Assembly: GCA_977017645.1 (NCBI GenBank) | Contig: OZ360247.1 | Coordinates: forward strand, 43,958,001-44,022,000 | Length of the DNA: 64,000 nucleotides | Reading direction: 5' to 3' | Origin: Torpedo marmorata | Taxonomy: Eukaryota | In this document: one piece after another, positions 9,100 to 59,598 of the stretch | Position numbering within the stretch: position 1 is the stretch's first letter | Layout: every line of letters starts with the position of its first letter | The notes under the pieces: model-generated | The model's database searches: none | Seen by the model: the letters and a program-made list of their open reading frames with translations, nothing else | Told to the model about the DNA's origin: nothing | Made by a program: the position numbers and the translations under genes

Positions 9100-9640
9100 C
9101 AATGACGTTTGAAAGCTCCCACAGTGTTTGACAGTTCAGCAATAACGCCTGCACTTAGAAACTACAACGTCCAGGATGCAACAGGAAAGGCCCAGGGCTG
9201 GAGGAATGGCCAGTACACCTATCACTCAAGCTGTACCCCGCCCACCTCCACCAATCACCGATCGAGGAAACGCCTTCTCTCTTTGCGGCAACGGGACGTC
9301 AATCAAGGTCGTCATCGCTGCTGGTCAGATCACGTGGTACGTGACGTTAGGGGCGGGTTCAGGAGGCGAGAGGCCGAGAGCGAGCAGTGAAGAGCAAAAA
9401 AAAAAATTGATCCGCGAGGAAAACAAGTGTCGGCAAAATGGCTGACAAATTCGCTCTGGTTCAACGAGGAGCGGGAATTCCAGGTAAAAGAGAACAAGAG
9501 CGGCGGCCGCGGGAGGGCTGGCGCGGCGCGGCGGCCGTGACGGGAGGTGTCGGGCGGCTCTGGTGCCAGGGCTCGCTGCTGCTCGGCGCTGCCGCCTCCC
9601 CGCCCCCACTGCCTTCCTCTGCAGGGCAGAGGCCTGGGCA
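9100..9640 (+). promoter_or_regulatory. GPATCH8: CpG-island, TATA-less promoter and first exon region of GPATCH8
   Basis: CpG-dense. ZNF143/SBS-like ACTACAACGTCCAGGATGCA at 9161-9180, CCAAT 9251, CRE-like GACGTCA about 9295 and GTGACGT 9341, E-box CACGTG 9331, GC box GGGGCGGG 9350, and YY1-like AAAATGGC over the ATG. Confidence 0.8.
9438..9483 (+). CDS. GPATCH8: GPATCH8 coding exon 1 (MADKFA-R-FNEEREFQ; one extra base at 9456-9459 as assembled)
   Basis: ATG GCT GAC AAA TTC GCT [CTGG] TTC AAC GAG GAG CGG GAA TTC CAG|GTAAAA matches the recalled vertebrate N-terminus MADRFSRFNEDRDFQ. The exon is 46 nt where 45 is needed. Confidence 0.88.
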
Positions 9641-28384: not shown

Positions 28385-29307
28385 GTAAGAATTTAAATTA
28401 TGATTTGAGAAATAATTTGGTGTAAACTGGTTAATGATTATGTGCACTAAACGAGGTGTGGAGAGAGCAGTTTTGAATAAATAGTCCACACAGTGTCTAG
28501 CAGTGAAAATTGCATAATTGGCCCAAACTACTACAGTATGTAGTGTTTAGAATATATCTTTAGTTTTAAAATTTTCAGGATTTTGTAATATTTATTAATG
28601 CTCTGCTGCTACTATATATACAGGACATGAAAAATGCATCTCAAGGTAAATCAACATTTTGTTTGTACTTCATGGATAAATAGTACACATGCTTCATTGC
28701 TACTTTAAATAAAACGCTTCGTAAATAATCCCACCATATAGAAGTCTCCTTTATACTTGTTCAATATTTAAGTAGATCTAATTCAGTTTTACTTACTTGA
28801 GTTAATCCAGTGCTTTGGTTTTACAGCATTTTGCTTTCGTGTGTAGCAATTGTCATTGCACTCACATGATAAAGGTTGGAATTTCATGTGCAATGTAAGA
28901 TGAGTGGCATGATTAAATTTACAAAAGGACTAGAAATATGTGATGATCTCCTTTACGTACTGGATATTTTGTACACATTTTGCAAGTTATACTTGTTGTC
29001 TTTTGTGTATTTGTTGTGCAGTTTGTTTTACTGCAGTGAAATTGCACTGTTTTAAATTGACCTTCCACTAAGGGGCAAGCTTACGACTAGAAATATTGTT
29101 CCAATCCAGTTGAAGCGAATGATGAGTGAACTAAGGAATCGTGAAGCCAACTCCACTGCCATCCTTCTTTTCTTTTAATATTCTCTTTTTTAATGGTGAC
29201 CAAAATTTTCTGTACGAAGTTATAATCATTGGTACAATTAGGCCAGTGTTTTTTAAAATAGTAACTGTCCTGTCACAGCATTGATTTTTATTTAAAATTA
29301 GTATTTC

Positions 29308-30960: not shown

Positions 30961-33900
30961 TTAGTGATGCTGCATCAGCACTAGAATTCACTATCTTCTT
31001 ACTGATTGCTGCAGTTCATGATAGTTTAGCACAATTGTCTTGAGCAATTGGGAACAGACAAAATATTTAGGGCTTGCCTACAATTTCTATATCTCAGGAA
31101 TAAATTAATCACAAATTACCCGCATAAGTAGATAGTTAAAGGTAAACCGTTCCATTTGAATAAGGTTATGTTTTTAACAGCTATCAAGTTTACTTGTTCC
31201 CTTAAGGTGGAAAATGTATGGGAGATGGGGGAAAGTGTTTGAGCTGGTTTGCTATGTTTAAAATGTGTGCAAATTTCCATCCATTATAATTAAAATGTTA
31301 AAAATTGAGGAGATCATTATGTATTTCTGTTCTCATTCAAGATGTACCCAGGTTACCATGTAAGAAATTTTGCACACAACTTCGGGTGTCCACTGTTTCT
31401 CTTCTGCAGCAGTTGGGCCATAATTGCTAAGCAGCCATGAACTGGTTTGTATTGCACGCTCTGCTTTTTTTTTAGGGGTTTCTTGGTTCCTTTTCTTCTC
31501 CTTCCAACACAACAAATAGCTACTGTGAGACTTTGCTGGCATGAAATTTGTTTATGGAATGGCAATAGCCAATGATGCATGTTGATAATACTGCAGGATA
31601 AGTTTTCAATAAGTGATTTATTAACATTAATTGCATCATCCCTAACATTGCATTTGTTTCTTCTTTTCTCTTTAACAACAACATAACTGAAAATTTTATC
31701 ACCCACAAATTTGTTTTATTTTCAATTTTGCATGTGATTTTTGTTTGCATAAATTTGAAACATTTTTTTTGTTGGCCAGAGAAATAGTTGGCCAAAACCT
31801 CTTAAAAATTAAATAATGCACCAAAGCAAACCAATCTTCCTTCACAAAATGTATAATTCAGCAGGGAATGTTGGCATTTCAATATCTAAATTGCACAAAA
31901 TTACTGGAAATTCAGTAAATAGTATAAAAATACAAGCACCTATCTGTCTGTTTTCAAATTTGAATTCCTATGAACATGAACAAATATGTTGTCCTTTTAA
32001 AAAAATTGAGCACGAGTAAAGCATTTTATTTTACCCATTTTTTTTGTGTTCCAGTAGATAAAAGAAAAACAAAGGTGGGTAGCTTTAAATTAATACACTA
32101 GTTAACTTGAACACTCATATTGTCCAAAATTTATGTTCATTTGACCACCACCAGTATTTATCTTAAAATATTAATAATTTCCAGCTAGTTGATGATCCTA
32201 TTTTGCCTTCCCTTAGTTTTCAGAAGGTTTAAAAAAAATTGCAGTTACTTTGTTCTTCAGTTCAGAGTTTTATGAAAGTCACCCACGATAATTCATTCTC
32301 TATTCTGTGGAAGGGAACTCCTCTTGGGAGTCAGAGAGGTAATGTCACTTTTCTCGATTCATTCAATTCTGTTCCAGTATTATGACAATATTTTGCGGTG
32401 CTGCTATTCTCTTGGTCTCACACCTTAGCTTTTGAACCAGAAGTGTTTTAGTGGCTAGCAGACAGACTCGCCCTTTTCTGCCTTGCCGATGTTGACTCTT
32501 GCCTAAAACACTTCGATGCTGGATGGAGTAGAGTAGTTCTGCACTGCAGAATGCAATGTTGTGTCCTGGATCTAGAAGATGGGCAGCTGGTATGCAGGGC
32601 AGTCTCTTACCCACAAAAAAAACCTGACACATAGCTGAGCCATGTCCCTAAACTTTGCCTTGTGTCAAAGTTCTAAAGGATCTTGAATCTCCCTGACCTT
32701 AAGGTAAATCACAAAAATATTAACAATTAAACAGTTATTAACTTTTTAAAAAGTTGCTGAAGTATTTTAAACAATTAAGAACTTTGAAGCAAATTCTGTT
32801 AATTATAAATAAAGTAAATAATCTAAAACTCACCATTGCCCCACAATATTGTTATTCCACACTCATACTGAAAAGAATCACTTATTAGATCAAATTTAAC
32901 TAGTTCAAGTTAATATGCACATCTTCAGCAAGTTTGAAATCCACTGTTAGTCTCTCTATTGAATTTAAAATTGAAGGGAAGATAGGAAGTCCTCAATGGA
33001 AGTTGGAAAGCAAACCCAAGACTTGCATTTGTTCAGGAATCCTGAAATATCTTGATCTCTATGTTAATTCCAGCCGTATGGCATGGAACTACCTGATTTG
33101 GTCCATTGCTTTAGTAGAGATAATTGTTACTTTTATAATATTCCCATGAACCAAGAGCAGACATTTATTGTTGCACATTTTTTATTCTGCAGAACAATAA
33201 ATTCAGTAAGTTTTTTGAAAGTACCGGTATGTACAGTTATATTTCTGTAGTGAAGAACAAATTGGTAATTGTGTAAAGATTGAGATGTCTTTCCATCCAA
33301 AGCTTCAATGCCAAGAAACAGACAGAATTATTTTCAATAGCTAGCAAATGATTTCCATATATTCTAAATCAACAGCGTCCTGCAGCATTGTCTCGAGATG
33401 TGCTAAATGCTATGCTACAGTGTTCAGTCAGTGCAAATACCAAGTTTGGTTACATTATAGAGTCCACCGATTTTGAAATGATTTGTAGTGCAGATAATTA
33501 GTTTACATGATATTACTCAACTGCTGGGACATATCAAGGGTAAGCTGCCTGTGCACAATGAGATTAGTGCAGCATTTTACTGAGACTGGTGTTGAAGTTT
33601 ATTTTGTTCACCTGCAGCAACTGGGGATTCAATGTAAGAGAATGATGTGGAAATTTGTCTCCTCAGATCAGTCAGAGCGCAATCCCCAATATTAGCAACT
33701 ACTAAATTTGCACAATCCAGTCATCCAAATAGCCACTTTCTCACTAAGTTCAATGCAATTTAATAAATATTTAATACCAAATACAGAAGCAATTAATCAT
33801 CGAAAGAAAACCAGAAAATACTGTAAATGATCAGGAAGTAACTATGAAGAGAGAAAGTTGATTTTTTTATTTATTCCTGGCCTATCATTGGAACTGATTT

Positions 33901-34633: not shown

Positions 34634-37600
34634 CTCACACATAATATATATTTTATATGCATAGAAATAATTAAAAAAAATTTTTTTTCTCCATTGTGTG
34701 TCATCATGGCACGCTGCACTGACTTACGGCAAGCTGGTCTTGAATCGTGGATTTACATTGTGCTTCACTATTACCTAATGTAGACATTACTTGCAAGCAG
34801 TGAATTGAACAGAAGCAGACCATTAGTGTTTGGACAGTTTCTTACTTTGTGTTACATTTAACTGTTCTTTTGACAGCCCAGTTTTTAAAGTCAGGTTCGT
34901 ATGGAAATGCTTTCACTCCACTTGCACTGCTTTGAAATAGCCTATTGCTTCATCTGTCTGTCTATTTTTTAATGCATTAATTAATATTGCAGTCAGGATA
35001 ATGTCTCACTTCCTTCATTGAAAATCTAAAGTGGCATAAATATTAATATCAACATTTCAAGATAAGATTTGAGATTATTGTTTTATATTTTCAAATGTAG
35101 AAAGAAAATAAATTCTCCACCAAAAGGATGAGAACGATGAGCCTTGTTTTATGTCCAGTGGTATTTAAGATTATAGGTTAAGTTCACTGACCTAATTGGA
35201 TAGGTTGTCATTAAGACAAATTTGTTTCTTTTATGAAGCCCTTCCACTCCATTGATGGCTTTCTTTGAATTTTGTATTTGAATAACAGCAATGTTCATTC
35301 TATGGCCATTATTACAATTTTTAAGTAGCATTTACATTTTCTTTTCTAGATACAGTTTTATAGATTTTCTTTTCTAGATTCAGTGTTGTGCTGGGCTATG
35401 ATTTTAAATTTACACATTTAAATATTTTTAATAGGAAAACGAGTCCTTTTTTAAACAAAGTCCCTTGAACAATAAGTTTAAAACTGCAATTTATAGGAAT
35501 AAAAAATACCTAGCTGTTTTATTCTTTATAACTTGTAGCTTTTTAGATCTCCACAATATTGCCATAGATTACAAATAATAGCCAAACATGTTATGAACTG
35601 AAAGCTCAAACCCAAGTAACATGGTTTAGGCAACATTTGAAACTAGCGACTGCCACGTGTTCTAATTCTTTTAGTGATAATAGAATGAAGTTACCGGTAT
35701 CTTTTAAGTCTGACCTGATACTGAAATAAAGCACATTGAACCATGTATTTTTTTTTTCCTTTAATAAATTTGATTGCAAAACAATACTGCAAGACAGCAA
35801 CTTTTATGGAGTGTTGTGACAGCATGGGATTTCTATAGGCTACTCGTTTGAATTAAAGTTGGCCATATCTGTTCAGCTGCAATATATGTACAGCTTGCCT
35901 GTTTGGCCTTCAAGCCCTGAAAAGGATGGAAATGTTGCAATGCAAATACCTCAACAAAGTGTTGTGCTTAGAATAGATCACTGCTGTCCATTGTGTGGAG
36001 TTTGACCCTGCGGCCAGGTTACAGGAAATATTTTTTGTGGGCTTGGCAGAGTTTTAACATTGACACTATGCCAGTCACATGCATTCCGAGAGTAATGGAT
36101 TTACATAGTGTTTAATAAGAAACAAACTTTATGCACAGCTTGACCTGTTGTTTTCTCTCCACGTGTTCCCCCCCACATTGTGTGTTATTTTTTAATTTAG
36201 CTTTACATTTTTTTACATTTTACTTGATCTATCAGTTATTTTACAAGAAACAGCTGATTTTAGGACATTCCACTTTTTGCATTTATCCTTTTTTTAAAAG
36301 CTTGAGCAAGCCTTTCCCTGATACCCACCATTTGTTTCCTCAATAGAAATGGTCAGATAATAGGACTAGCACCAATAGTTTTGAAATAAAGCCTTCCCTA
36401 AGGGGGCAGGTAAAACAATGTACAGTGTTCGTACTACAGCATTCATTGAAGTGCAAGTACTGTACAATCTTGCTACCTATGGTACAGTACAGTATAGGTA
36501 CTTACATATTCATATACTGTGTGCGTATGAGCCACGCACACACTGATTATCATAAATCCAACTCCCAAAATGTTTCCAAAGGTCAGTTTGACTGTAGTGA
36601 AGCAACTTGTGTGGAATAACTAATGTTTTTCTCATTATTATATGTAAACTTCCTCTAGTTGCTAAAATGGTATAACACAATTCACAAAAACTCTAGACTC
36701 CAGCATCTGCATATTATCTTGTTTACCTAGAAAATGTATGACACATTGATTAACAACAGGTCAAACCTTGTGTGAATTTGGCTTTTTGTAATAACTTTGC
36801 AAGCTGCTTATTTTTAGAATGTTACTAAAAAATTGTTTCAAAAGAGACTTCAGTAATGTTTTTGTATTTTTGGCCAAAATGAATGATGCAAATGAATATT
36901 GGTATGCAGAACATACAGCACACAGAAATACTGACTCCAGGGAGATTATTTGAATTAGAGAAACAACAGATTGCATGTCTGTTAAAATTCCCTTTGATTG
37001 CCAAATATTACACGATTTGTTTCAACCATTGTAACATTGCTTGTAAAATTGGAATAAAGTTCTCAAGTTTGCAGTAAATTGAAGCTAGTTAAGCAATCAG
37101 TGGTAAGGAAAATGAGACATTACGCTGCTGCTTTCCCACCTTCCCTCTATATGCACTAATGGTTCTTGCTTTTAAATCTGTTGCGAGGCCTGTTCCATTC
37201 TAATTTTCAGCATTTTTGTTATCCTAAATATGAAGTGCATCACAATCTGTGCTTGTGCTCATTTTGTAAATTACTAACTTCACTGTTTCATTTTACATTA
37301 ATAATGGCTGCATGCTGGTTATAAACCCAATCAAGTCTAGGCTGGATTTTGCTATGATCGTGTTTGGTTTCTAGTGGTGGGGCAGATTTTGCACTTAAAA
37401 TAATTTGCAAACATGAAGTTTAGCACGCAACATAACCAAATTTATAAGAAAACCATAAGTTTAGTTGTCTGTTGCAAATTGATGATGTGAAGGTGACAGA
37501 GATGGTTTCAAAAGAGCGCTATATTGTCAGTTTTTTTTCAGTTCATTTGTTTTACATTCCTTTTACCCTGCTTTTTCATTATTTAATTATTATGCATTGA

Positions 37601-37695
37601 AGATGCACAACACACCATCAAAGTAATTCCAAATTGTGTGAGCAGTTTATGACATTGTGTTCCTTAAGGGTGTCCATCTACCCCATTCCCATTAG

Positions 37696-37986
<291 letters not shown>

Positions 37987-47215: not shown

Positions 47216-47683
47216 TACACCTTGGGTCTGAAATGTAAAATGCCTTTTGGATGCTGCATTATCTGGCTGAGTTTCTCCAGTACTTTTGTGCCCTGCACTA
47301 GACTCCAGCATCTGCAGATTTCTTATTGCCTCCTTGTAGAAATTACTTCTTGTATTGAATCTCTGGAATTCTCTGCTATAGTTTTTGTCTGGCAGTTGAA
47401 TAGTTTTGGAGGATTTTGTAAGGCTATACTCTGAGACCAAGCAATACTAACCCACCTTCATGAACATTGCATCTCAATTTTTGGTAATTGGAGCTTCAGG
47501 TATATTTCCTCTGACAAACAAAACCCAGTCTTGAGACCACAATCAATACTTTCAAATGCTTTTGGATGTGGCTACATTATCTCATTCTCTTTCTCTTCTC
47601 TCTCTATTTTCACCCTCATCCCACTCTTCCCCTTTCTTTCCACAGTAACTCCATTCTTTTCTCTCTGCTTCTCTTTCGTTCAG

Positions 47684-47746
47684 CAGAACTTTGGTACTGC
47701 TGCACAGGGAGACTCAGAGATGGCAAGAGACACGTTGAATTGAGAG
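47684..47746 (+). other. GPATCH8: Candidate alternative exon in GPATCH8 intron 3 (in-frame AELWYCCTGRLRDGKRHVELR, or the start of a longer poison exon)
   Basis: About 100-nt polypyrimidine tract (47578-47680), CAGCAG acceptor, purine-rich body, weak GAG|GTTTTA donor; strong GTAAGT donors at 48241 and 48297. Confidence 0.45.
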
Positions 47747-50700
47747 GTTTTAACCTTTGCCATGTTCCACAGTTTGAGAAATACTTTCTTTTCTGTTACA
47801 TCAGTGTGAAATCTTGTTTTTCCAATACCTACTTCAATATCGTGCTATCAAAAATCTTCACCATAGCTGAGTCATTCTCCAAGGGCAATTTTACTAATGT
47901 AAATGCTTCAAGTATAACATCTTTATGCAATAAAATTTGAATGAAAATTTCATCACGAGCATAATTTAAACTTGTATGTGCTGTTTTATTCTGTAGAAAG
48001 AAAATTCCATACATCTGTACTGAAGTAGTTTTGGCTGTAAAGAATGACCCAACCTTGGTAGTGGAAAATGTCCTTTTTTTGAAAGATTTGGAACAACATA
48101 ATGCCAATGCTCTTATCCCATCCTATTTTAGCTGAAAGGGAAAGAATCACAGCCACAAACCCAGAGATTAATGATTTTTGCTTTTTTTTTAAATTTTTTT
48201 TAAATCATGAAAGAAAATTGCAACAAATGTACCTGTGATGGTAAGTGCTTTGAGATTAAGATGCAGCTTTGTTGTCTATTTGTTATTAAGAATCAGGTAA
48301 GTGCCTATTTTCATAGATTTAATCAGTTTTTGTTTGGAATTTGGACATTCAAAAACTGCTTAAGCAATGAGACCCTACACTTTAACAATGGCTTGTGTGC
48401 ATGTAGCTGTGGGTGCACTGTAGTTTTAAGTAAAACAATCATGATTAACATAGTACTTAAGAATTTCACAACTTCTGCTTCAGGGTAAATTTCATTTGTG
48501 CATTGAGTAGAACCTAGGTTCTCTTGTGTAATACAAAATTCAGGTAAGATATGAAGGTATATTCATTATTTTTGCATTGCATCCTATGAGTAACATTCCT
48601 AAATTGCATGCTGTTATGCTCCTGCTGATTTGATTAAAATACTTGTGTATCAGCTATTTAGTTTCCTTCCTTGTTGCTTGTGGTGTTTGCTCTTCCACTC
48701 AATTCACTCTTAATTTCTGTCAGATTAACTTTAACTCTATTTTGTGCGGAGGCAGGGGAGTGGGATAGATGGTGCATAAAGTGACCTGATCCTGACTTGA
48801 GCAAGATTTTTCCCACTGTAGTTTCCCAACATGACTTGTCAGAAAATTACCTATGGTAAAGCAATGAGTTTGTATTCTGATTACTTTATCATTCATTTAG
48901 TTGAAATTTAACATCAACAGAATAAAATGATGTTTATCCATGATTATCACCAAAAATTGCGCCTGGCAATTTTTGTTAAAACTTGGGTTTAATTTTATTA
49001 AAAGATGTCAGATGCAAAGCTCATCGCCAGAAGAGAGCTTCATTACAGATTTTGTTTAATTGCTGGTAATATTCAGCTATCCTCAGTGAATTTGACAATT
49101 TAATGCCACATTTTGTGCAGATTCATGCCAAAGTTGCTGAAAAGTTACTGCACAAATTATTCTCGTGGCTGCCTAATTCCAACCTAGAAATAAGTAAAAC
49201 AAAGTCTGGCAGGGTAGCTTTGAATTGTGAAATGTACATGTGCAACAAATGATGTTGCTCCCCTCTTCTGGCCTCTACTTTCCACTGCTGCTTCTGCTCA
49301 GTTGCCCCATTGCCTACCTCTTGTCCTCAGTAGCCACCACCTTTTCTTCAGCACACATTGGCTGTGCGTCAGCCTGCTTATCCTGCCCACCCATCTTCCC
49401 GGTCTCTTGTACTGCCTCCTGATAATCTTATAACTTGTATGTTTAACTGTGTACAATTCTGTGTAATGAAGTTGGAACAATATATTCAATTTATAGTGAG
49501 ATTTCAGAATAAAGTTGGCCTTATCTTGGGAATAAAAGTGTTTTTCTGCATGAAATCAATGGTGTAAGTAATTGGCTTAATTTTCAACACAGCTGTTGCA
49601 ATTCCTCAAGTCATATAACTCAATATTCTCCCAACCTAAATTATTATGGTGTAGATTCACCAGATCGGTGAATTCACCTGACTGTTGAATTTAGAGTTTC
49701 ATATTGACAGCAGATCAGATTAATTAAAGGTAAGACACTTTCCAAATTCAGAAATATTTTCAGATCTAAGCATGAAAAGAAACATGCATTTGTTCCAGAA
49801 GTTGTCCATTTGTCATCATGATTGTGTAGGACAACCTGAGTGAGATTAAGTGGAATTACCACAGTTATGTCGTGTTTGTTTAGCGTATTTTGTCTCATGT
49901 AGGTGCAAATTGATTGAAGTGCACCAAGTTTGTGCCAATACTATTTGGACAGATTCTAACCCATTAGGTTGCATAGATGACTTAACTTGCAATTAAATTA
50001 GACCATTAAATTATTTAAATTAATGGAGATGCTAGAAGCCTCTAAATTGTGTTTGTAATTGTCAGTTTAATTATAGCAGAACAATTTCACTCTCAATCCC
50101 TATATTTCATCAAAAAGTATTACAAATATAATTTCATCCTTAAATGCGAAGTGTCTAGTGGAAGGGTGCATTTTGACTCATTATGTTTGTGTTCGTTTTG
50201 TATTCCTTGAAGGCAAAAACCTTCCTAATGTAATGTGCACAAATAAAGCACGTTGTTATAATATGTTTTGGTTTGGTTCATTTTAAAAAGATGTTGCTCA
50301 TTTCTTTCCCTCTCCTTGTCATTTATTAGGCATGCCACCACACAGGATGGTGCATTTTGATAATCCTAAATTCTCTGGATAACAAATGATCCATCCAATA
50401 AAAATATACTTACCGGTAATTTTAACTCAGCAGAAAGTATTATTGCAAAATTTGATGAAATAAACTGTACATATATCAAGGAACTCAGCAAAAGTTTGAT
50501 TTCCATTGATTTTTTTTATTACAAGTGACAGGTGGTTAGCAATTAAATCCAGTGTTTTTTTCCTCCACATTTTCTCTTCTTTCATGAAAATAGAGTTACA
50601 CTCCTATGTGATCCTAATTATTTTAGGGTGCAGTCCCACAGCTAATGATAGTTCTGAATTATTGTTCAAATATAGGGAGTTAGCAGAGAATTTGTCCAGG

Positions 50701-55335: not shown

Positions 55336-58300
55336 AGTTATGAAATCTGGAAGAAAATGGGATACCTTTTTAAAAAAAAATAAATTGATTAATCATTGAA
55401 AGGCTCTTCACATGGTTATGTGCCATTCCTAATTTTGCAAGGTTTATATTGTTTATTCTTTGTCAGGAGATCTGTTTCTGTAAATTTAACTGAGGAGCAC
55501 TGCAAATTTTTCTGTGACTTGTGATTTGTAAATTACAAGGTTTATCTTCCTCACTAGAAATTGCTGGGATATTTGTACACTAATGGCCAAAATGTTAATC
55601 TCATACCTCTCAGCAAATTGTGGCTGAGGAGTTGCATCTTGTAATTTGCAATGAGTACTATAATTAGAGATCCCCAAGTAAGAAAATAAAAAATAACCTT
55701 GAAACTATTCCCTGAACATTTACTGTACAAGATTATTTGTATCTTTTAACAACACGTTGAATTGTTAGAATTGTGACATGTTCGGCACAACTTTGTGGGC
55801 TGAAGGGCCTGTATTGTGCTGTCGGTTTTCTATGATTCTAATTGTCAGTGTCATCCATGTTATTGTTAATATTGCCTGGTGCCAGCTGCATGATCTTGCC
55901 AGATACTCCTTCAACGGCCACTGAAACCTAACTCTTCAACCCTTTAGGTTATCTGTAGACCTGACTACTTCAATGTGCTTCAAGCTAACCTCCACGTGCT
56001 TCCGTTTTCTATAAAACAAAGCTCATCCAAAATTCTTTTGCCCACATGCTGATTTGTACCAAATCTCTTTCTCCCACCATACTTGGGTTCATTAGCTCCC
56101 AGTGACCAACATTTTCATTTTAAAGTTCTTAACCTTGTTTTCAAGTTGTTCTGTGCTGTACTGATCTTCATTTCCACAACCAGCTCCATCCAGACTCTTG
56201 TACACATCTTATTTCAATCACTTGCACCATTGCCAATTGTGTCTAGCTCTGAAGACCCCAAACTCTGGAACCTCATCTCTAAATTCTTCACCCTTCTTTC
56301 TTATAAGCTACACCATAAAAGCTCTTTCATCTGCCTTAATCTCTTATGACACTGAAACTTTTGTTTGCAAGTAATTTGAAATATTTTATGATATTAAAAT
56401 TATTATGTTAATGTTAAATCATTGGTACATATTTTCTTTTTTAGAGTGTTACTGGGGTAATATCCTTGAGCTTCTTAAGTGAGAGGTTAACTTAAAGTTG
56501 AAATGTTCAGCATTCAGATTTGGTCAGAACCACCTGGATTCTAAAGTCCAGGAGTTGTATTTCATTGATTACAAACATATTATATCTGATATCTTTCTAT
56601 CAAAGCATTCTAAACATTTCTGAAGTAGTTATTGAAGAAGTGCATGGTTACACATTTCTGTCTAGATTTATAGAGTGCAGGCTTAGAGTATATTTTATAC
56701 CTGGTATTACTCAAAAAACAAACATGGAGTGAAAGTGTACTTGGATGAAAAGAAGTCACATTATATCCCTATATATTGCCAAAAAATGAACCACGTGACT
56801 GGAAAGTAACTGCTCAAAGTGGACCCTAAAGCAGAAGCTGTCCCTGTTCTCACTAGTATCTTATACTGACCTCATTTGCTAAACAGCACTTGTTTCTTCA
56901 CTGTTCCCACCTAACAAGTGGTATTTCTTTTTTACAGCATTTTGATCGTGGCGATGTTGTGGTGATGGTAAACTTAGCAGTGGTAATTTTATTTCAGACT
57001 GAATTACTTTCCCTCTGTCATCAGTGCACCAATATGAAAGGCTTATTTTCCTTCTCTGTTTAGCGTTCATTCTGCTGCTTGATATTCATTACCTTTTTTT
57101 CTTAGTAAAATTATTTAAATGCATCTGTCCTGAGTGTTAATTGTTGTCCATTAGGGATTAAATGGTGCAAAGCGACTTTGTTATTTGTGCTATGTAAATC
57201 AAATATATTGAACATCAATGTATAATATTGTTCAAGAGTTGATTTTACCCATTTGCTGGGCACTTGCAAGCTGCTGCAAATATTAAAAATTTAAAAAAGA
57301 TCATTACTAATAATAATAATTGTAAAATATTCTTAATCTGTACAGCAACCTAATCTAACCCTTCACAATGTACCCAAATAAATTATACAAGTCAATGACT
57401 TGTATAACATTTTTTTAGTATTTGTCTTGTGCAGATTAAATCTGAGCCCATTGGCTAATCAGTATGCTATTTGCGAATTGGCTTGCTCCGAAATAAAAAT
57501 CAGTGTGGATGATTATTTTGGTAAATTTAAATTTTTAATTCAAATGACATCATTTTGCTGTGTAGAAATTAATTTGTATTCCACCAAATTTGTTGAGCAT
57601 CCAAGGTAAGTAGTTTGTTTCATCACACTCAGCAGACAGCTGCTGATTGTGTCTTGATTTAGATATGTGGTAGTAAAGTGCTAGGCTGTCACATTTGCTT
57701 TGTTTGGCTGGTTGAGTGGATTCAAACTTTCTGATTCTTAAACATAGTTCAATTAGTACAGTTGAAAGTTTAATTTTCTTTGCATAAGTCCTTTTCACAG
57801 CTTAGACTCCTGCATCAGCATGTTTGATCTAAACCTGAAAGTAATGGGTAAACACCTGTATTGCAAAGTTGATAAATTGTCTGTTGTGGCTTATATACAA
57901 TTATGTATATGTTATCTGAACTTCAATTTTTTGGGTAAGCAGGACTGAGGTTGGAAGTTCTGCTCTCGAAGGCATGTTTGTTCATAAAAGCCATAATGCA
58001 GGAAGGGTAAATTACTTCCTAAGCCCAATTTTTAAAAAAATGAAGTGCGGCTGCTATTTGTTGAACCCGTCATAACTATGTGCAGTATTCATGTACTTGC
58101 AACCAAAATGTGATTTTAAACTACTTAATCAGACTTTTTGTATTTTTACCTTCAAACGTGCTCTTTAATTTATTGTAAATGGTGATGGTTGAATTGTTGC
58201 TTTTTTTCTCGATCTCTTTAAAAAAAAATCTTGGAATATGTTATTCAATTTCACTTTTAAAGATTATTAATTTCATCTTCCTTTTCCTTCCCTATTCCAC

Positions 58301-58374
58301 TGTCATCTCCAAAACAAAAATAGAACTTCAATGTGATGTAACTTTCAAAAATCTCTCTCTGGTTCAGTAAAATA

Positions 58375-59080
58375 CCGTATATTTCGGCGTATAAGTCGAC
58401 CCTTGAAACCCTCAAAAATGTCTCAAAAAACAGGGGTCGACTTATACACCGAATATACTTTTGAGACCTTAAAATCAGCTCAAAATCGAGTTCACGCCGA
58501 TTCGGCGTATAAGTCGACCCCTGAAAACACGATTCGGCATATAAGTCGACCCCTGAAAACACGATTCGGCGTATAGGTCGACCCTGGAAGCGCCTCCCCA
58601 CCGCCGGCGCCGCCTCTCCACGACACCTCCCCACCGCTGGGCGCCGCCATAAACCACCCAGACATTCTACAATTGTAGAGCCCGAGGTCCCCGCTCCTAC
58701 CCGGGAGAACGAGCTCCCCACTCCTACCCGGGAGAACGAGCTCCCCGCTCCTGCTCGGGACAAAGACGTCGCCGCACCTGCATCTTCCCGGCCAGAAGCA
58801 AAGGTTTTTTTTTTTTACTGTTTTCTTTACTTACTTGCTTAATTTACAGCTTTGTTACTTGGCGATTGGGATGTTGTAACAAATTTTGGGTTGTCGCTGG
58901 GAGGCCCAGACAGCCTGAAAATTGGGGGTCGACTTATACGCCGGTCAATGCGCAACATCTCAGGCATCGCGATTTTTGGGGGTCGACTTATACGCCGGAT
59001 ATACCATAAAACCATTAAAATGAGGCTGAAAAAGGGGGGTCGACTTATCTGCCGGTCGACTTATACGCCGAAATATACTG
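58375..59080. mobile_element. Non-autonomous DNA transposon (Tc2/pogo-like) with multiple subterminal repeats
   Basis: TA|CCGTATATTTCGGCGTATAAGTCGACC ... GGTCGACTTATACGCCGAAATATACTG; the GGCGTATAAGTCGACCC motif repeats in both orientations; 27-bp tandem repeat at 58683-58760; CpGs are retained. Confidence 0.85.
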
Positions 59081-59469
59081 TGATTTAAATCCTTGGCCAA
59101 CCCATCAGCTAAATCTCTAGAATTTAAAATTTCAATTTTTACACCATTTGTTTGTACGGTCAAGCTGTATAAACACATCCTTTAGCATTTTATTGTAATT
59201 ACACAACAGCATATTTGCAACTTTGATTTTAAGCATGCTAAATGATATGAATAATAAATTATTCTCGTTTCCTACAAGTAAAATGATGATTAGTGTGCAA
59301 ACCTGTGTGTGTTACCTAATCTTCACTGTTCCAGAAAACTTACAATGAAAGTGCTGTTAAAACTAAGCTGTGAGAATGGCTTCTATTTGGTTCACTGTAG
59401 CTTTCTGACCTCTGCACTCAAGGCAAGATCTTTACCCACCAGTCCCTCTGAGCACGTAATTATAGCTGA

Positions 59470-59598
<129 letters not shown>

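What the first reader, a model, noticed from the sequence alone, without database searches (positions are those of the whole stretch)
47570..48550. Candidate autoregulatory 3'-splice-site sensor inside the intron that splits the G-patch domain
Seen: a roughly 100-nt pyrimidine tract with two competing acceptors 38 nt apart, CACAG| (47645) and TTCAG|CAG (47683/47686), with a branch-like TAAC (47646-47649) between them. After exon 3 (phase 1) there are three outcomes. The downstream AG with the weak donor at 47747 gives a 63- or 60-nt in-frame insert (AELWYCCTGRLRDGKRHVELR) in the middle of the G-patch. The upstream AG shifts frame to TGA 47741-47743. Read-through to the strong donors ATG|GTAAGT (48241), CAG|GTAAGT (48297) or CAG|GTAAGA (48544) includes TGA 47938-47940 and predicts NMD. 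A further acceptor at 48131 defines a 109-nt frameshifting exon. Known: G-patch motifs activate the helicase DHX15, GPATCH8 is implicated in branch-site and cryptic 3' splice-site quality control, and splicing factors often self-regulate through poison exons. Inference: a feedback module in which branch-point or AG choice inactivates GPATCH8 by NMD or by breaking its helicase-binding motif.
Basis: partly seen in the sequence, partly recalled or inferred. Interest (0 to 1): 0.75.

Follow-up and report, generated by a model that had tools for sequence, protein, structure and literature searches.

The report
Unproven extra poison exon in GPATCH8
The flagged splice-like signals in a cartilaginous-fish GPATCH8 intron are really there and would stop the protein early if used, but they match none of the gene's known self-limiting "poison" exons, whose true counterparts sit elsewhere in the same gene, so this is likely a lineage-limited extra and not a new sensor.

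Summary
All motifs are at the stated coordinates. The tract is the window's most pyrimidine-rich 100 nt, and three of the five strongest donors of the 21.6-kb intron lie within 304 nt (post hoc p 0.006-0.04). The sensor reading is not supported. The in-frame insert needs a very weak donor (rank 671 of 1195), and 0 of 47 cartilaginous-fish GPATCH8 proteins carry an insert there. The 38-nt acceptor spacing is not the 10-30 nt of mutant-SF3B1 cryptic sites. The element has no match in 12.9 kb of the same intron from a bony vertebrate, whose middle is missing. Poison exons around the GPATCH8 G-patch are already published. The three catalogued in human introns 2-3 (35, 18, 45 nt) have same-length, stop-bearing counterparts here at 31410-31444, 34877-34894 and 56938-56982 (87-94% identical to the bony vertebrate). 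New but weak: a predicted hairpin (47655-47728, p about 0.01) buries the downstream acceptor. Splicing of the element is untested. Best reading: a lineage-limited cryptic poison-exon unit (0.45); neutral pseudo-exon 0.30.

The parts
37801..37873 (+). GPATCH8 exon 3 (73 nt, first part of the G-patch, ends in phase 1)
47582..47683 (+). Pyrimidine tract, 87% Y over 100 nt; 110-nt AG-free gap ends at 47645; branch-like CTCAT 47615-47619 and TAAC 47646-47649
   Evidence: branch use is inferred
47641..47645 (+). Upstream candidate acceptor (rank 2 of 1161 AGs); use would lead to TGA 47741-47743
47679..47686 (+). Downstream candidate NAGNAG acceptor (ranks 7 and 14); use with a strong donor would lead to TGA 47938-47940
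47655..47728 (+). Predicted hairpin (-31 to -32 kcal/mol) pairing the 3' tract and both AGs of the NAGNAG with the purine-rich exon start
   Evidence: prediction only, no covariation data
47744..47752 (+). Proposed in-frame donor at 47747; very weak, probably not used
   Evidence: -5.7 bits, rank 671 of 1195
48132..48296 (+). Candidate 109- or 165-nt exon (acceptor rank 57 of 1161) with in-frame TGA 48236-48238
48238..48549 (+). Cluster of three strong donors: 48241, 48297, 48544
48398..48610 (+). Two TGCATG (RBFOX-type) motifs at 48398 and 48605, each downstream of a strong donor; intron 3 holds 12 such motifs
56938..56982 (+). Conserved 45-nt poison exon of intron 3 (stop at its third codon; inner donor at 56968), in conserved block 56881-57306; counterpart of the catalogued human 45-nt exon
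   Evidence: 39 of 45 identical to L002:6568-6612
34877..34894 (+). Conserved 18-nt poison exon of intron 2 (in-frame TAA)
   Evidence: 17 of 18 identical to L003:1414-1431
31410..31444 (+). Conserved 35-nt poison exon of intron 2 (in-frame TAA, NAGNAG acceptor)
   Evidence: 31 of 35 identical to L001:8620-8654
59513..59580 (+). GPATCH8 exon 4 (68 nt, second part of the G-patch)

Best explanation
The flagged stretch is likely a lineage-limited cryptic poison-exon unit: a strong pyrimidine-tract acceptor and three strong donors that, if spliced in, would add a premature stop and send some GPATCH8 mRNA to decay, on top of the conserved 45-nt poison exon at 56938-56982. Shown: the motifs, their ranks, the stop in every acceptor/strong-donor combination, and the conservation of the three other exons. 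Inferred: that the unit is spliced, most simply as 48132-48240/48296 or 47646/47684-48296, and that NMD follows (stops lie far upstream of later junctions; established NMD rule). AG choice would not change the outcome, because both acceptors give a stop with every strong donor. The in-frame G-patch insert is probably not made. RBFOX control through the two downstream TGCATG is a guess by analogy. Feedback by GPATCH8 itself is untested.
For: Top pyrimidine tract of the window and donors ranked 1, 3, 5 of 1195 lie within about 950 nt; clustering p 0.006-0.04. Every combination of the four named acceptors with the three strong donors carries a stop, 12 of 12. The stretch is not a repeat within the window, and a related species' DNA covers 47624-48287 at single-copy depth. 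The gene is known to use poison exons around the G-patch (PMC6811834). Cartilaginous fishes do have extra GPATCH8 exons: a 22-nt intron-2 exon (28624-28645) explains the start of 17 of 100 relatives' isoforms and has no match in L001. No hit to the bony-vertebrate intron by blastn, Smith-Waterman or nhmmer, while the same tests find the 45-nt exon block at E about 1e-37.
Against: Splicing of these sites is untested. The statistics are post hoc and use a recalled matrix. Strong pseudo-acceptors are common in this intron (6 of the top 8 lie elsewhere), and two more strong donors (49730, 57606) have no strong acceptor. An exon ending at 48240 has a Met in frame with exon 4, yet 0 of 51 relatives' proteins with the exon-4 start show such an N-terminus; the 4 of 51 with another upstream exon match none of the element's donors. 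The real conserved poison exons here have weak donors (1.0-1.6 bits for the 18- and 45-nt exons), unlike this unit. 'Lineage-limited' rests on a partial intron with a middle gap of unknown size.
Confidence: 0.45

Rival explanations
1. Neutral pseudo-exon: a decayed CT-rich tract beside a repeat-rich zone plus a chance cluster of donor-like motifs, never spliced to a meaningful degree.
For: No conservation found; no trace in relatives' isoforms; many equally strong pseudo-acceptors; a donor triple somewhere on one strand has p 0.04. The tract begins about 230 nt after repeats that end near 47356, and its 5' edge weakly resembles 47235-47330 (local shuffle p 0.03; not significant by blastn). Stops in intronic sequence are expected by default.
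Against: The best tract and the donor triple occur together in the right order. Share of 31-mers held by relative X1 is 0.29 of 121 against about 0.17 expected from 5.6% substitution on 7 neighbouring pieces; this is a weak hint only.
Confidence: 0.3
2. A conserved jawed-vertebrate element (uncatalogued poison exon, or a decoy exon whose several donors promote retention of intron 3) whose counterpart lies in the part of the bony-vertebrate intron that I could not obtain.
For: The element lies mid-intron, 9.7 kb after exon 3. L003 and L002 do not overlap, so the middle is missing. The human intron is 27.9 kb.
Against: Two human catalogues each list exactly one poison exon in this intron, the 45-nt one (Lim 2020 supplement; Felker 2023 supplement); Mironov 2023 lists none there; Chapman 2019 found two exons in mouse brain clones.
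Confidence: 0.13
3. One reading: a sensor in which GPATCH8/DHX15 activity sets the choice between two acceptors, giving either NMD or an in-frame insert that breaks the G-patch.
For: Two strong acceptors with the upstream AG abutting the branch-like motif of the downstream one. A predicted hairpin buries only the downstream acceptor. GPATCH8 competes with SUGP1 for DHX15 and affects cryptic 3' splice sites (passages of PMC12434867 and PMC11874996).
Against: The only non-NMD outcome needs donor 47747 (rank 671 of 1195). 0 of 47 proteins carry an insert (members were read from 17 clusters at 90% identity). With strong donors both acceptors give a stop, so the choice has no differential output. 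Spacing is 38 nt against 10-30 nt for most mutant-SF3B1 cryptic sites. The hairpin signal depends on framing: z -4.0 for the window at 47630 but -0.8 at 47660, and 18 of 718 intron windows reach z below -3.
Confidence: 0.08

Closest known systems
Ultraconserved poison exons of mammalian GPATCH8 (Chapman et al. 2019, PMC6811834: abstract, passages and section 10 read, Fig. S1C not readable; coordinates from supplements of Lim 2020 PMC7347940, Mironov 2023 PMC10123112 and Felker 2023 PMC9882217, rows only)
   Same: Same gene, same intron, predicted premature stop, RBFOX-type motifs nearby. The window's exons at 31410-31444, 34877-34894 and 56938-56982 match the three human exons in intron, order, length and stop.
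   Different: The flagged stretch is not one of them: it lies 11 kb from exon 4 (the human exon lies 2125 nt from it), has other lengths (109-898 nt), far stronger splice sites and no detected conservation.
Mutant-SF3B1 / SUGP1 / GPATCH8-dependent cryptic 3' splice sites (PMC12434867, passages; Benbarche 2024 not held, seen only as cited)
   Same: Two AGs competing along one pyrimidine tract.
   Different: Spacing 38 nt, not 10-30 nt; the upstream AG lies 5' of the proposed branch A; neither AG belongs to a constitutive exon.
Decoy exons of SF3B1 intron 4
   Same: Cryptic exon with several strong donors deep in a long intron of a splicing-factor gene.
   Different: No conservation or intron-retention evidence here.
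Hairpin-masked splice sites in DDX5/DBP2-type helicase genes (seen only in earlier notes such as e1-7834323)
   Same: Predicted stem that hides a poison acceptor, in a gene tied to an RNA helicase.
   Different: Those stems are reported as conserved; here there is one sequence, p about 0.01 post hoc, and no covariation.

Membership tests
Conserved GPATCH8 poison exons (flagged stretch 47570-48550) | Lies in an intron flanking the G-patch exons of GPATCH8 | tested here: met
Conserved GPATCH8 poison exons (flagged stretch 47570-48550) | Inclusion gives a premature stop | tested here: met
   12 of 12 combinations with strong donors
Conserved GPATCH8 poison exons (flagged stretch 47570-48550) | Corresponds in length and position to a catalogued human exon | tested here: not met
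   The single catalogued intron-3 exon is 45 nt, 2125 nt before exon 4; its counterpart is 56938-56982
Conserved GPATCH8 poison exons (flagged stretch 47570-48550) | High sequence conservation in distant vertebrates | tested here: inconclusive
   No hit in 12.9 kb of L003+L002 intron 3, but the middle is missing
Conserved GPATCH8 poison exons (flagged stretch 47570-48550) | Flanking RBFOX sites | tested here: inconclusive
   TGCATG at 48398 and 48605; 12 in the intron; no GCATG within 300 nt of the donors of the conserved 18- and 45-nt exons in this species
Conserved GPATCH8 poison exons (flagged stretch 47570-48550) | Spliced into mRNA and NMD-sensitive | not testable with these tools
   Only a DNA-like contig set was laid
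Conserved GPATCH8 poison exons (exons 31410-31444, 34877-34894, 56938-56982) | Same intron, order, length and in-frame stop as the human exons; conserved sequence and splice sites in a distant vertebrate | tested here: met
   35, 18, 45 nt; 31/35, 17/18, 39/45 identity to L001, L003, L002. Human sequence itself not seen, coordinates only.
Mutant-SF3B1/GPATCH8-sensitive cryptic 3' splice sites | Cryptic AG mostly 10-30 nt upstream of a canonical 3' splice site | tested here: not met
   38 nt, and no canonical exon follows
Mutant-SF3B1/GPATCH8-sensitive cryptic 3' splice sites | Use changes with SF3B1 mutation or GPATCH8/SUGP1 loss | not testable with these tools
   needs a minigene or knockdown RNA-seq
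Hairpin-masked splice-site switches | Stable stem covers the splice site | tested here: inconclusive
   -31.7 kcal/mol, 1 of 200 shuffles; 10 of 1000 half-wise shuffles; frame-dependent
Hairpin-masked splice-site switches | Stem conserved with compensatory changes | not testable with these tools
   no orthologous sequence of the stem obtained
Decoy exons | Several strong 5' splice sites in a cryptic exon | tested here: met
Decoy exons | Promotes retention of the host intron | not testable with these tools
   needs RNA-seq or antisense blocking

The most novel reading that the evidence does not exclude
A helicase-gated poison acceptor: the stem at 47655-47728 hides the downstream acceptor until GPATCH8-activated DHX15 opens it, or redirects U2 to the upstream AG, so that GPATCH8 activity sets inclusion of a long stop-bearing exon in its own G-patch intron; conserved at least across sharks and rays and possibly in the unseen middle of the bony-vertebrate intron.
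Probability: 0.07. Interest if true: 0.7.

Novelty: new member of a known kind. Interest (0 to 1): 0.24.

Why it matters
GPATCH8 loss rescues part of mutant-SF3B1 mis-splicing (PMC12434867, PMC11874996, passages), so exons that lower GPATCH8 are natural antisense handles. The useful result here is that the three known poison exons keep their length, stop and splice sites between a cartilaginous fish, a bony vertebrate and (by coordinates) human, which argues they have been under selection since early jawed vertebrates. I found no test of GPATCH8 autoregulation in the searches. The flagged stretch itself would matter only if it is spliced and responds to GPATCH8/DHX15; otherwise it is one more cryptic exon.

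Tried and rejected
No genome is held for this window. Sequencing runs: no RNA holder listed. The one run laid, X1, behaves as DNA of a related species; its difference table was cut, so identity over the element could not be read, and lower depth over 48288-48951 proves nothing. The 84-aa frame 47686-47937 has no relatives in two word searches, the full HMMER scan (0 hits), metagenome contigs (0 of 378 candidates), Pfam or the Atlas (best 0.83); these are weak for a 21-aa insert. Rfam over 37000-62500: one chance-level hit. My first guess that 57566-57605 was the counterpart of the human 45-nt exon was dropped. Alternative upstream exons of elephant-shark and sawshark isoforms do not map to the element's donors (ranks 131-222 of 1185). 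The idea that the tract derives from the nearby repeat tail is too weak to claim. L001-L003 could not be extended. 10 of the 13 loci were other G-patch genes or weak matches and were not used. Kovalak 2021 supplements hold no GPATCH8 row. Two papers were not held. Chapman's Fig. S1C is in an unreadable file, so which two exons it shows is inferred. bioRxiv supplements of the 2026 G-patch survey (passages read) were not seen and may hold GPATCH8 self-splicing data. Earlier scan notes had nothing on this DNA.

Full report
Gene and organism. The window holds exons 1-5 of GPATCH8 on the + strand. A query covering exon 5 matched annotated GPATCH8 of sharks, rays and elephant shark at 91-100% identity, so the organism is a cartilaginous fish. 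Exon 3 is 37801-37873 and exon 4 is 59513-59580. No genome is held.

Observation. Every motif and translation in the finding reproduces. One correction: the 109-nt exon has its own stop at 48236. The tract is the most pyrimidine-rich 100 nt of the + strand (87%). With a matrix built from recalled consensus frequencies, the donors 48297, 48544 and 48241 rank 1, 3 and 5 of 1195 GT sites in the intron. Their clustering has p 0.006 given the top five and 0.04 for any triple on that strand of the window, both post hoc. The acceptors rank 2, 7, 14 and 57 of 1161, but six of the top eight AGs lie elsewhere in the intron. So the anatomy is real and somewhat more than chance, not overwhelmingly so.

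The three-outcome model. It depends on donor 47747, which scores -5.7 bits, rank 671 of 1195; the donors of the conserved 18- and 45-nt exons score 1.0 to 1.6. I listed the members of 17 clusters of cartilaginous-fish GPATCH8 (23 named species, 100 proteins over 1000 aa). Of 47 that hold both flanks of the intron-3 junction, 0 have an insert. Of 51 that hold the start of exon 4, 47 are canonical and 4 have other upstream exons, which do not map to the element's donors. An exon ending at 48240 would give a Met in frame with exon 4; no such N-terminus occurs. Twenty of the 100 start at the Met inside exon 4, which fits upstream poison exons in general but does not locate them. Without donor 47747, both acceptors give a stop with all strong donors, so AG choice has no differential output. 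The 38-nt spacing also differs from the 10-30 nt of most mutant-SF3B1 cryptic sites (PMC12434867, passage).

What is known. Chapman et al. [quoted passage not shown] Supplement rows give the human coordinates: a 45-nt exon in intron 3, 2125 nt before exon 4, and 18- and 35-nt exons in intron 2 (Felker 2023, which also lists one exon in a later intron outside this window; Lim 2020; Mironov 2023). Each of the first two lists one exon only in intron 3.

Conservation test. A metagenome scan gave three contigs, L001, L003 and L002, with GPATCH8 exons 2, 3 and 4-5 of another vertebrate (3 of 13 loci used). That they are one bony vertebrate is inferred from their collinear order, shared record prefix and exon-5 residues. 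Six non-coding blocks align with the window. Three hold exons of exactly the human lengths with in-frame stops and intact splice sites: 35 nt at 31410-31444 (31 of 35 identical), 18 nt at 34877-34894 (17 of 18), and 45 nt at 56938-56982 (39 of 45; 2531 nt before exon 4 here, 2093 in L002). The 18-nt exon also appears, read in another frame, in two relatives' annotated isoforms. The flagged stretch gave no hit by blastn, by Smith-Waterman in 500-nt tiles (scores 33-44 against shuffled maxima of 34-40; the 45-nt block scored 282) or by nhmmer (best E 1.3). The limit is that only 4.3 kb of the 5' end and 8.7 kb of the 3' end of that intron are in hand, with a gap of unknown size, and the element lies mid-intron. 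Absence is therefore not proven. Among close relatives, run X1 covers 47624-48287 at single-copy depth and holds 0.29 of the sampled words against about 0.17 expected, a weak hint of constraint.

47655-47728 folds into one hairpin of -31.7 kcal/mol (z -2.9, 1 of 200 shuffles). It pairs the 3' tract and both AGs of the NAGNAG, leaving the upstream AG and the branch-like motifs largely open. It survives shuffling the two halves separately (10 of 1000), and none of six real acceptors tested shows this. But the signal depends on framing and 18 of 718 intron windows reach z below -3. I looked for it after seeing an earlier scan note on hairpin-masked acceptors; that note is a lead, not support.

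Mechanism. Best reading (0.45): a cryptic poison-exon unit limited to this lineage that would divert some transcripts to NMD, secondary to the conserved 45-nt exon. Motifs, stops and the conservation contrast are shown; splicing, NMD and any regulation are inferred.

Novelty and score. Poison exons around the GPATCH8 G-patch are already known, and the flagged stretch is at best one more member, unproven. The extension of the three known exons to cartilaginous fish is a solid but modest addition; I did not find it stated in the searches, which cover open-access text only. Interest 0.24. The boldest reading not excluded, a DHX15-gated hairpin acceptor, has probability about 0.07 and would merit 0.7.

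Noticed in passing
window 56938-56982 (block 56881-57306); L002:6568-6612: The real conserved poison exon of intron 3: 45 nt, stop at codon 3, inner donor giving a 30-nt form; same length and similar distance to exon 4 as the catalogued human exon.
   Followed up: yes
window 34877-34894; L003:1414-1431: Conserved 18-nt poison exon in an 83%-identical 280-nt block, with several upstream AGs sharing its donor; human has 18- and 106-nt forms with one donor. This is the gene's conserved competing-acceptor arrangement.
   Followed up: partly
window 31410-31444; L001:8620-8654: Conserved 35-nt poison exon with a conserved NAGNAG acceptor.
   Followed up: yes
window 28624-28645: 22-nt frameshifting exon in intron 2 that explains the shared odd N-terminus of 17 of 100 cartilaginous-fish isoforms; no match in L001, so probably specific to this group.
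   Followed up: partly
window 57581-57805; L002:7811-8077: Second conserved non-coding block in distal intron 3, with a strong AAG|GTAAGT donor 60 nt (window) or 92 nt (L002) upstream; no catalogued human exon; function open.
   Followed up: partly
window 37106-37800 and 59364-59512: Conserved intronic sequence upstream of exon 3 (about 700 nt, 66%) and exon 4 (about 150 nt), unusual for constitutive exons and suggestive of regulated splicing; some relatives' isoforms skip exon 4.
   Followed up: no
window 47655-47728: Predicted hairpin burying the downstream acceptor of the flagged element.
   Followed up: partly
window 9438-9483: Exon 1 coding part has one base too many compared with relatives' proteins, likely an assembly error; single-base indels could also affect the frame sums at the flagged element.
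   Followed up: no
window 58370-58520 and 57350-57440: Strongest folding windows of intron 3 (z -8.7, -7.3, -6.4); probably inverted-repeat mobile elements.
   Followed up: no
window 49730: Fourth-ranked donor of intron 3, without a good acceptor upstream.
   Followed up: partly
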